A stretch of DNA of 64,000 nt from Escherichia coli (GTDB lineage: Bacteria; Pseudomonadota; Gammaproteobacteria; Enterobacterales; Enterobacteriaceae): NCBI RefSeq assembly GCF_045037415.1, contig NZ_CP173438.1. One strand, 5' to 3'. Of this stretch, positions 29,655 to 30,341 are shown in pieces. The position numbers were made by a program, and so were the translations under genes. Numbering within the stretch: the stretch's first letter is position 1; each line of letters starts with the position of its first letter. The notes beneath the pieces were generated by a model that saw only the letters and a program-made list of their open reading frames with translations, did not search any database and was not told where the DNA came from.

Positions 29655-30341
29655 TCACTCCTTCTCTTCTTTTCCGTAGTGGAGTTGGCCAATTTTGATA
29701 AGAGGGCGTCCCTGAGATTTGCGGTGTAGATTGGTATCGCGCAGAGAATACACACAGCCACAATATTCCTGCTGATAGAATTTTTCGCGCTTGCTGATTT
29801 CAATCATACGGGACGAGCCGCCCTGCTTGCGCCAGTTATAATCCCAGTACACCATACCCGGATAATGCGCAACAGCTCGCCGCCCACACTCGTTAACCTG
29901 CTGCATATTTTTCCAGCGTGAAATGCCCAGTGAACTGCTGATCACACTGAAACCATTTTCAGCAGCGTACAACGCTGTCCGCTCAAAACGCATGTCAAAA
30001 CACATGGTACAACGGATCCCCCTCTCAGGCTCCCATTCCATTCCTTTGGCACGTTCAAACCAGTTGTCGGTGTCGTAATCAGCATCGATAAACGGCACGC
30101 CGTGTTGTTCAGCAAAGCGAATATTTTCATCCTTACGAATTAAATACTCTTTCTGAGGATGAATGTTCGGGTTGTAGAAAAAGATGGTGTAGTCGATTCC
30201 CGAGGCCTGAAGCGCCTCCATCACTTCACCGGAACATGGAGCACAGCAAGAGTGCAGTAGTAGTTTGTTTGCCCCGTTTGGGAGCTCCAATTTAGGCCGT
30301 TTGAAATCAGCAATAGTCATAAATATTTTTATTGGGGTCAT
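29655..30341 (-). CDS. QueH-like (DUF208) protein, putative epoxyqueuosine reductase family
   Basis: 228 aa; [13 protein letters not shown]ys cluster and further conserved Cys (CTMCFD, CGCVY); assignment from remembered motif only. Confidence 0.55.

What the first reader, a model, noticed from the sequence alone, without database searches (positions are those of the whole stretch)
29655..30341. Prophage-borne QueH-like (DUF208) gene next to hok
The protein carries the [11 protein letters not shown] cysteine cluster that I recall as the hallmark of the DUF208/QueH epoxyqueuosine reductase family; the assignment rests on that motif alone. E. coli normally uses QueG rather than QueH. A phage-encoded copy could act on tRNA queuosine (translation tuning) or belong to a 7-deazaguanine nucleic-acid modification route, but no other queuosine pathway genes are nearby. 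It replaces the relBE position of Qin.
Basis: partly seen in the sequence, partly recalled or inferred. Interest (0 to 1): 0.5.

Follow-up and report, generated by a model that had tools for sequence, protein, structure and literature searches.

The report
Prophage-carried QueH tRNA queuosine reductase
A lambda-like prophage in this E. coli carries an intact, strongly conserved copy of QueH, the vitamin-B12-independent enzyme for the last step of queuosine tRNA modification. The host already has the B12-dependent enzyme QueG, so this is a real but unsurprising accessory gene that databases already name correctly.

Summary
Window 29655..30341 (minus strand) is an open reading frame with the [11 protein letters not shown] motif. 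The real start is probably the ATG at 30320, giving 221 aa.

It is a canonical QueH:
- Pfam PF02677, E 1e-65, full length.
- All family-invariant residues are present, including CCxPC, RCxxC and CGC.
- The AlphaFold model superposes on T. maritima QueH (TM 0.92, rmsd 1.2 Å).
- It is 80-90% identical to chromosomal QueH of other Enterobacterales.

It sits in the accessory slot of a lambdoid prophage integrated at ompW, in the order DUF977, queH, hokD. This is the slot where K-12 Qin has relBE. The prophage has no tgt/dpdA, queA or preQ0 genes.

The gene is in 994 of 5426 complete E. coli genomes. RefSeq already names it QueH. queG is in 5425 and queA-tgt in 5424 of the same genomes. Prophage alleles show dN/dS of 0.02-0.08. 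A conserved TGnTACACT extended -10 travels with the gene.

The best reading is a lysogen-expressed, cobamide-independent bypass for epoxyqueuosine-to-queuosine reduction on host tRNA. That function is inferred, not shown. A role in DNA modification is very unlikely.

It is a new member of a known kind and of modest interest. I found no paper describing a phage-borne QueH.

The parts
29655..30320 (-). queH coding sequence (221 aa plus stop). The longest ORF extends to the ATG at 30341, but that start is not conserved.
   Evidence: Pfam PF02677 E 1.2e-65. PDB QueH 7lc5 E 8e-22. AF2 pLDDT 95.7 and Foldseek TM 0.92 to 7lc5. Invariant C25 C26 C29 N52 Y59 R62 E99 R103 C104 C107 R111 K137 Q184 C187 G188 C189 are all present. 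The start is inferred from RefSeq and from loss of the upstream ATG in L011.
30355..30363 (-). Putative extended -10 promoter element TGcTACACT, 34-42 nt upstream of the ATG at 30320 (inferred, not demonstrated).
   Evidence: This is the left edge of the sequence block that stays with queH in four different prophage backgrounds. The same TGCTACACT occurs at the same distance upstream of the chromosomal Erwinia queH. The generic promoter scan did not call it because there is no -35 match.
29262..29587 (-). Neighbouring hokD toxin gene (29262..29417) with its sok/hok regulatory RNA region (29412..29587). This is context and is not functionally linked to queH.
   Evidence: RefSeq annotation of the identical sequence. 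Rfam RF01794, 120.5 bits. hokD follows queH in 53 of 81 viral loci, but it is absent or replaced in others.
30495..30920 (-). Upstream neighbour, a DUF977 gene (winged-helix protein of the phage early region). It is the constant left neighbour of queH.
   Evidence: Annotation. DUF977 lies within 600 nt upstream in 77 of 81 viral loci.

Best explanation
The gene encodes a bona fide QueH, the cobamide-independent iron-sulfur epoxyqueuosine reductase. A lambdoid phage lineage captured it from an enterobacterial chromosome. It is kept as an accessory ('moron'-type) gene in the variable slot between the replication genes and the Q antiterminator. In the lysogen it would reduce epoxyqueuosine (oQ) at position 34 of the host's tRNA-Asp, -Asn, -His and -Tyr to queuosine (Q). 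The host's own Tgt and QueA make the oQ substrate. E. coli's own reductase, QueG, needs a cobamide that E. coli cannot make de novo. QueH would therefore make the last step of Q synthesis independent of external B12, much as MetE backs up MetH. Shown here: family membership, intact catalytic residues, the QueH fold, strong purifying selection, prophage location, and co-occurrence with queG, queA and tgt. Inferred: enzymatic activity in E. coli, expression from its own promoter during lysogeny, and cobamide independence as the selective benefit.
For: Family: Pfam QueH E 1.2e-65, full length. All 16 invariant and 14 near-invariant columns of a 46-sequence alignment are retained. Position 29 is Cys in 58 of 65 near-full-length rows (5 are gapped there), while T. 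maritima's Asp13 is the exception. The AF2 model has pLDDT 95.7 and matches 7lc5 with TM 0.92 and rmsd 1.2 Å. Orthology: 80-90% identity to QueH in ordinary chromosomal contexts, namely Erwinia purL-queH-glrK, Providencia tmcA-DUF441-queH, Photorhabdus, and P0001. Selection: dN/dS is 0.02-0.08 among prophage alleles, with dS up to 0.45. Substrate supply: queA-tgt is in 5424 of 5426 E. coli genomes. Redundancy with a cobamide enzyme: queG is in 5425 of 5426 genomes and queH in 994 of 5426. Literature: oQ reduction in E. coli is cobamide-dependent and oQ accumulates aerobically (Frey 1988, as cited in PMC7466049). QueH is described as the cobamide-independent alternative (PMC6461909). Accessory-cassette behaviour: the gene is found after DUF977 in mosaic prophages with different downstream modules. 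The conserved block starts about 50 nt upstream and includes TGnTACACT, which is shared with the chromosomal Erwinia gene. The gene is also carried by an isolated phage, HannyBb.
Against: There are no experimental data for this protein. No expression data exist; the promoter is only a conserved extended -10 with no -35 and no Shine-Dalgarno sequence, and the generic scan did not call it. Any benefit may be small: deleting queG did not change growth of an E. coli metE mutant with cobamides (PMC11841063), and known oQ-versus-Q phenotypes are slight. QueH is itself an Fe-S enzyme and may not work better than QueG in air. The prophage shows no unusual use of the Q-decoded NAU/NAC codons.
Confidence: 0.7

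Rival explanations
1. The enzymatic activity is the same, but it serves the phage rather than the lysogen. queH would be transcribed with the early operon after induction, topping up Q on tRNAs to improve translation of phage genes during lytic growth.
For: queH is on the same strand as the replication genes, directly downstream of them, and no terminator-like site lies between DUF977 and queH. It is also carried by an isolated phage, HannyBb.
Against: Use of NAU versus NAC codons is the same in prophage early genes (0.53), late genes (0.55) and a host gene sample (0.54). The slot it occupies is otherwise filled by lysogen-maintenance or accessory genes such as hok/sok, relBE and doc. The conserved promoter-like element of cellular origin suggests independent transcription.
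Confidence: 0.2
2. The protein has been recruited for something other than tRNA oQ reduction. Examples would be a different epoxide or nucleic-acid substrate, or changing tRNA modification state to evade a tRNA-targeting toxin or defence system.
For: Nothing direct. The reading is only suggested by the phage context, by neighbouring toxin genes, and by the apparent redundancy with QueG.
Against: It is 80-90% identical to housekeeping chromosomal QueH, retains every invariant residue, and shows dN/dS <= 0.08, so there is no sign of neofunctionalisation. QueH and its five nearest neighbours have no significant match to any PADLOC defence model.
Confidence: 0.05
3. It is part of a phage 7-deazaguanine DNA-modification pathway.
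For: Only the general link between queuosine-pathway genes and phage DNA modification (PMC6884629).
Against: The whole prophage lacks DpdA/Tgt-like transglycosylase, QueA, QueC/D/E/F and FolE. The phage survey in PMC6884629 found no QueH in any deazaguanine cluster. QueH acts after QueA on an oQ residue, and no DNA-modification system with such a residue has been described.
Confidence: 0.02
4. It is a decaying passenger gene with no current function.
For: Cryptic prophages commonly hold decaying genes, and a few truncated copies exist (10 of 994 genomes have under 80% coverage).
Against: The reading frame is intact in 984 of 994 carrier genomes. dN/dS is 0.02-0.08 across alleles that differ at up to 45% of synonymous sites.
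Confidence: 0.03

Closest known systems
QueH (DUF208, PF02677) of Thermotoga maritima, PDB 7lc5/7lc7/9deu
   Same: Same Pfam family across its full length and same fold (TM 0.92, rmsd 1.2 Å). Same Cys pairs: CC near the N-terminus, RCxxC, and CGC.
   Different: Only about 31% identical. The residue equivalent to T. maritima Asp13 (mutated to Asn in 9dco) is Cys here, which is the family majority. This protein also has a ~25-residue C-terminal tail shared with gammaproteobacterial homologues.
Chromosomal QueH of Enterobacterales (Erwinia, Providencia, Proteus, Photorhabdus, Gibbsiella and others)
   Same: 80-90% amino-acid identity and the same length and N-terminus. The Erwinia gene even shares the TGCTACACT element upstream.
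   Different: Those genes sit among housekeeping genes (for example purL-queH-glrK). This one sits in a lambdoid prophage between DUF977 and hokD. Synonymous sites are saturated between the two groups, so the capture is not recent.
QueG of E. coli (cobalamin and [4Fe-4S] epoxyqueuosine reductase)
   Same: Predicted to catalyse the same reaction on the same tRNAs. Both genes are present in the same cell in about 18% of E. coli genomes.
   Different: Unrelated fold and cofactor: QueG needs a cobamide and QueH does not (PMC6461909; PMC4646009). QueG is core and chromosomal; QueH is accessory and phage-borne.
Phage 7-deazaguanine DNA-modification clusters (DpdA with FolE/QueD/QueE/QueC)
   Same: Phage-borne genes drawn from the queuosine/archaeosine pathway.
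   Different: Those clusters make preQ0-type bases and insert them into DNA. The survey that defined them found no QueA, QueG or QueH in any virus (PMC6884629). Here the situation is reversed: QueH is present alone and none of those genes are.

Membership tests
QueH (PF02677 / DUF208) epoxyqueuosine reductase | Significant full-length match to the family HMM | tested here: met
   PF02677 E 1.2e-65, query residues 27-201 on model positions 1-174 of 175.
QueH (PF02677 / DUF208) epoxyqueuosine reductase | Conserved metal-binding cysteines (CCxPC, RCxxC, CGC) and other invariant residues | tested here: met
   C25, C26, C29, C104, C107, C187 and C189 are invariant in alignment A1 and all are present. 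N52, Y59, R62, E99, R103, R111, K137 and Q184 are also retained.
QueH (PF02677 / DUF208) epoxyqueuosine reductase | Fold of solved QueH | tested here: met
   AF2 model pLDDT 95.7. Foldseek best hits are the five T. maritima QueH entries (TM 0.90-0.92, rmsd 1.2-2.0 Å). The next hits (TtuA, LarE, YcfA) are at TM <= 0.57.
QueH (PF02677 / DUF208) epoxyqueuosine reductase | Substrate available: the genome encodes Tgt and QueA, which make oQ-tRNA | tested here: met
   queA-tgt is found in 5424 of 5426 complete E. coli genomes. It lies outside the window.
QueH (PF02677 / DUF208) epoxyqueuosine reductase | Catalyses oQ to Q on tRNA without a cobamide | not testable with these tools
   Needs complementation of a queG mutant plus tRNA nucleoside LC-MS.
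Phage 7-deazaguanine DNA-modification system | DpdA/Tgt-like DNA transglycosylase and preQ0 synthesis genes in the phage genome | tested here: not met
   None appears in the RefSeq annotation of the 99.99% identical ~54 kb prophage. All unnamed genes there are under 100 aa.
Prophage moron / lysogenic-conversion gene | Self-contained cassette found in different phage backgrounds, with cellular homologues | tested here: met
   The same gene follows DUF977 in mosaic prophages with different downstream modules. Its closest relatives are chromosomal.
Prophage moron / lysogenic-conversion gene | Own promoter and terminator; expressed in the lysogen | tested here: inconclusive
   A conserved TGnTACACT extended -10 travels with the gene. 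The promoter scan does not call it, there is no terminator directly after the gene, and there are no expression data. GC content (0.48) is not distinctive.
Known anti-phage defence systems (PADLOC) | Match to a defence-system protein model | tested here: not met
   No family matches QueH. Among the five neighbours, the only hit is a marginal E 8e-4 match for DUF1627.

The most novel reading that the evidence does not exclude
This would be the first queuosine-specific tRNA-modification enzyme known to be carried by a phage. It would act as a lysogenic-conversion gene that frees about one in five E. coli strains (including O104:H4, some O157:H7 and APEC strains) from dependence on external cobamides for completing queuosine. 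Their tRNA modification state, and so their decoding of NAU/NAC codons, would then differ in B12-poor or aerobic niches. A wilder variant, at about 5% probability, is that the phage uses the oQ/Q state of tRNA as a counter-measure against a tRNA-directed toxin or defence system.
Probability: 0.4. Interest if true: 0.5.

Novelty: new member of a known kind. Interest (0 to 1): 0.33.

Why it matters
Whether bacteria gain anything from Q rather than its epoxide precursor is poorly understood. E. coli is the model organism in which QueG's B12 dependence was discovered. A phage-borne, B12-independent alternative, under strong purifying selection in about 18% of strains, offers a natural experiment. 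Isogenic lysogens with and without queH, in queG+ and queG- backgrounds and with or without B12, would show whether oQ-to-Q conversion affects fitness or translation. It would also extend the list of phage auxiliary genes to the final, tRNA-specific steps of the queuosine pathway, which a 2019 survey found absent from viruses. The gene itself is a textbook QueH and RefSeq already names it correctly.

Tried and rejected
1. NCBIfam scan: no family hit, so that library gave nothing.

2. PHROGs: the only hit is phrog_3217, 'unknown function'. Its profile starts at residue 41 of the ORF and so misses the CCAPC motif.

3. Phage collection (tblastn): 25 records matched, but only Escherichia phage HannyBb is a convincing phage. 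I sampled one metagenomic 'Bacteriophage sp.' hit, MT835504, and it proved to be bacterial chromosome (potABC, argH, asd, topB). The other hits of that kind therefore cannot be taken as evidence that other phages carry QueH.

4. IMG/VR scan: 162 hits, and the 80 kept all encode the identical protein from E. coli prophages. This added no diversity.

5. Codon-bias test for Q-decoded codons (Asn, Asp, His, Tyr): the prophage does not differ from the host sample.

6. PADLOC defence models: nothing.

7. Literature: searches for QueH, DUF208, COG1636, PF02677 and WP_000150294 combined with prophage or phage found no paper on a phage-borne QueH. Several 'DUF208' hits were prefix matches to DUF2080, DUF2087 or DUF2089. 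The two primary QueH papers (Zallot 2017, Li 2021) and Frey 1988 are not held. What I say about metal coordination in T. maritima QueH therefore rests on PDB entry titles and on my own knowledge.

8. I did not test whether the Enterobacterales with chromosomal queH also have queG.

Full report
**1. What is there**

The ORF listing gives a 228-codon ORF at 29655..30341 on the minus strand, and its translation contains [11 protein letters not shown]. The finding's coordinates are therefore exact.

The first ATG (30341) is probably not the start. In the divergent allele L011 that codon is ATT. RefSeq starts the protein at the second ATG (window 30320, 221 aa), and the N-termini of chromosomal homologues align with that start. 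Neither ATG has a Shine-Dalgarno sequence.

**2. Family membership**

- Pfam gives a single domain, PF02677 QueH, with E 1.2e-65 covering model positions 1-174 of 175.
- phmmer against PDB sequences finds only T. maritima QueH (7lc5 and its mutants), E about 1e-21.
- I took near-full-length, diverse family members from a search of 1.84 billion representatives (4775 hits at E <= 0.001). In 65 of these, and in a curated 46-sequence alignment (A1), the query keeps every invariant column: C25, C26, C29, N52, Y59, R62, E99, R103, C104, C107, R111, K137, Q184, C187, G188, C189. It also keeps every near-invariant column.
- The residue aligned with T. maritima Asp13 (the D13N mutant is PDB 9dco) is Cys here. 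Cys is found at this column in 58 of the 65 rows (5 are gapped there), so T. maritima is the outlier and the query has the family consensus.
- An AlphaFold2 model built on A1 has mean pLDDT 95.7. Its best PDB matches are the five QueH entries (TM normalised to target 0.90-0.92, rmsd 1.2-2.0 Å). The next matches are other adenine-nucleotide alpha-hydrolase-fold proteins (TtuA, LarE, YcfA, TilS) at much lower TM.

That did not happen.

**3. Where it comes from**

The closest proteins in the 5.8-billion-sequence collection are 80-90% identical and are named QueH. They come from Erwinia, Providencia, Proteus, Photorhabdus, Gibbsiella, Sodalis, Rahnella, Dickeya and others.

Their contexts are ordinary chromosome:
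- Erwinia: purL-queH-glrK-glrR-glnB-hmp-glyA.
- Providencia: tmcA-DUF441-queH.
- Photorhabdus: benE-queH.
- P0001, an unnamed relative at 90% identity: next to a LysR regulator and acetyltransferases.

Between prophage and chromosomal genes dN is about 0.10-0.15 and synonymous sites are saturated. A phage lineage therefore captured a cellular queH, and not recently.

**4. Genomic setting**

Window 1-42341 is 99.99% identical to E. coli strain 4/1-1. There it is a ~54 kb lambdoid prophage between ompW and trpA.

Gene order in the prophage:
- int, xis, exo, dicB, ydfABC;
- cI-like repressor, cro, ydaT;
- O-like protein, DnaC-like protein, DUF1627, DUF977;
- **queH**, hokD, hypothetical 90 aa, DUF968, RusA, Q antiterminator;
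- DNA methyltransferase, two tRNAs, lysis genes;
- head and tail genes.

No Tgt/DpdA, QueA, QueC/D/E/F or FolE is annotated anywhere in the prophage, and every unnamed gene is under 100 aa. K-12 Qin reads ydfU-rem-hokD-relE-relB-ydfV, so queH occupies the slot that holds relBE in Qin.

**5. Distribution**

- queH is found in 994 of 5426 complete E. coli genomes, almost always as one copy, and RefSeq annotates it 'epoxyqueuosine reductase QueH'.
- Carriers listed include O104:H4, an O157:H7 strain, APEC O18, and many human, animal and environmental isolates.
- queG is in 5425 of 5426 genomes and queA-tgt in 5424. Essentially every carrier therefore has both reductases and makes the substrate.
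- The gene is also in an isolated phage, Escherichia phage HannyBb (95% identity), where it is annotated 'hypothetical protein'.
- In 81 viral loci (80 IMG/VR plus HannyBb), 77 have DUF977 just upstream and 55 have hokD just downstream (53 have both). Seventeen have DUF977 with something else downstream, and none has relBE.
- Divergent alleles (91.7-98% DNA identity) sit in different mosaic prophages. All four follow DUF977, but what comes after queH differs: hokD-rem-ydfU-ydfT in two of them, DUF1971 then the DUF1367/1364/1133 genes in another, and hok plus doc in another.

**6. Is it functional?**

Among prophage alleles, dS reaches 0.45 while dN stays at or below 0.024, giving dN/dS of 0.02-0.08. 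This is strong purifying selection. It excludes a decaying passenger gene and argues against a change of function.

**7. Expression signals**

Aligning the upstream regions of four alleles shows that homology begins about 50 nt before the ATG. This holds even for L011, whose upstream sequence is otherwise unrelated to the other three. The conserved block starts with CTCTGATGCTACAC. TGcTACACT (window 30363..30355, minus strand) is an extended -10 type element. The same TGCTACACT lies at the same distance upstream of the chromosomal Erwinia queH, and Providencia and Photorhabdus have TATACT/TATAAT-like hexamers at a similar position.

I infer that the cassette brought its own promoter. This is inference only: the generic scan did not call it. 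The scan also found no terminator between DUF977 and queH, so read-through from the early operon after induction is possible too.

**8. Mechanism proposed**

Established knowledge:
- QueA makes oQ on tRNA, and QueG or QueH reduces it to Q (PMC5372724).
- QueG is a cobalamin/[4Fe-4S] enzyme (PMC4646009, PMC5175355).
- In E. coli the reduction is cobamide-dependent and oQ accumulates aerobically (Frey 1988, cited in PMC7466049).
- QueH is the cobamide-independent alternative, and cobamide-dependent and -independent enzyme pairs commonly co-exist in one genome (PMC6461909).

E. coli does not make cobamides de novo (my own knowledge). The simplest reading is therefore that the prophage gives its host a B12-independent route to finish queuosine.

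Evidence against a large effect: a queG deletion did not change growth of a metE mutant with cobamides (PMC11841063). Also, the prophage's own genes use NAU and NAC codons just as a host sample does, so a phage-specific translational need is not apparent.

**9. Rivals**

- Lytic-phase use of the same activity is possible and would not exclude lysogen expression.
- DNA modification is very unlikely because no transglycosylase or preQ0 genes are present. The phage survey by Hutinet et al. found no QueA, QueG or QueH in any virus analysed (PMC6884629).
- A new substrate or an anti-defence role has no support. Residues are fully conserved and there is no PADLOC match.

**10. Novelty**

The protein is an ordinary QueH that RefSeq already names correctly, so the assignment itself is not new. 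What seems not to have been noted in the literature I could search is the setting. This Q-specific enzyme is phage-borne, widespread in E. coli, redundant with QueG, and under strong selection.

In the curated phage collection it is essentially unique to this E. coli lambdoid lineage. The one other 'phage' hit I sampled turned out to be bacterial DNA. I rate it a new member of a known kind, of modest interest.

Noticed in passing
window 29630..29650 (-); intact copies in L011 about 5960-6050 and L012 about 5970-6060: ATGGATCACCTTTCTGATTGA, right after the queH stop, is the 3' remnant of a small hydrophobic ORF (VLVLKCALAIVAVVAIYCLVVVLMERLSD). That ORF is intact within a ~330-nt segment present between queH and the next gene in two divergent prophages and deleted here. 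It is unannotated and could be a small membrane peptide or type I toxin.
   Followed up: partly
window 24637..24713 and 24814..24889 (-): Two phage-borne tRNA genes lie downstream of the Q antiterminator and a DNA methyltransferase: tRNA-Arg(TCT) and a CAT-anticodon tRNA that RefSeq calls tRNA-Ile. Neither is a queuosine-carrying tRNA.
   Followed up: no
window 23751..23940 (-) and 36015..36066 (+): Rfam finds the sRNA STnc100 (132 bits) near the lysis region. It also finds DicF (77 bits) in the dicB/ydfABC immunity-side region, which is 96% identical to K-12 Qin.
   Followed up: no
L096 (MT835504, 'Bacteriophage sp.'): A 49.6 kb 'unverified bacteriophage' record carrying a QueH homologue is bacterial chromosomal DNA (potABC, argH, asd, topB). 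The phage collection therefore contains virome contigs that are cellular contamination.
   Followed up: yes
window 29655..30341; PHROG phrog_3217: The PHROG family for this protein is labelled 'unknown function'. Its profile begins at residue 41 of the ORF, after the CCAPC motif, which suggests that phage annotations have used a truncated start. Phage HannyBb annotates the gene as hypothetical.
   Followed up: partly
L012 4735-4920, L013 4726-4911, L095 5762-5968: In some prophages and in phage HannyBb, a truncated DNA methyltransferase gene remnant lies between DUF977 and queH. The window lacks it. This points to repeated rearrangement at this junction.
   Followed up: no
window 30936..31706 (-): The DUF1627 protein of the early region gives a marginal PADLOC hit to a CARF-type model (E 8e-4, residues 12-48 only). 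This is probably just a shared winged-helix segment.
   Followed up: no
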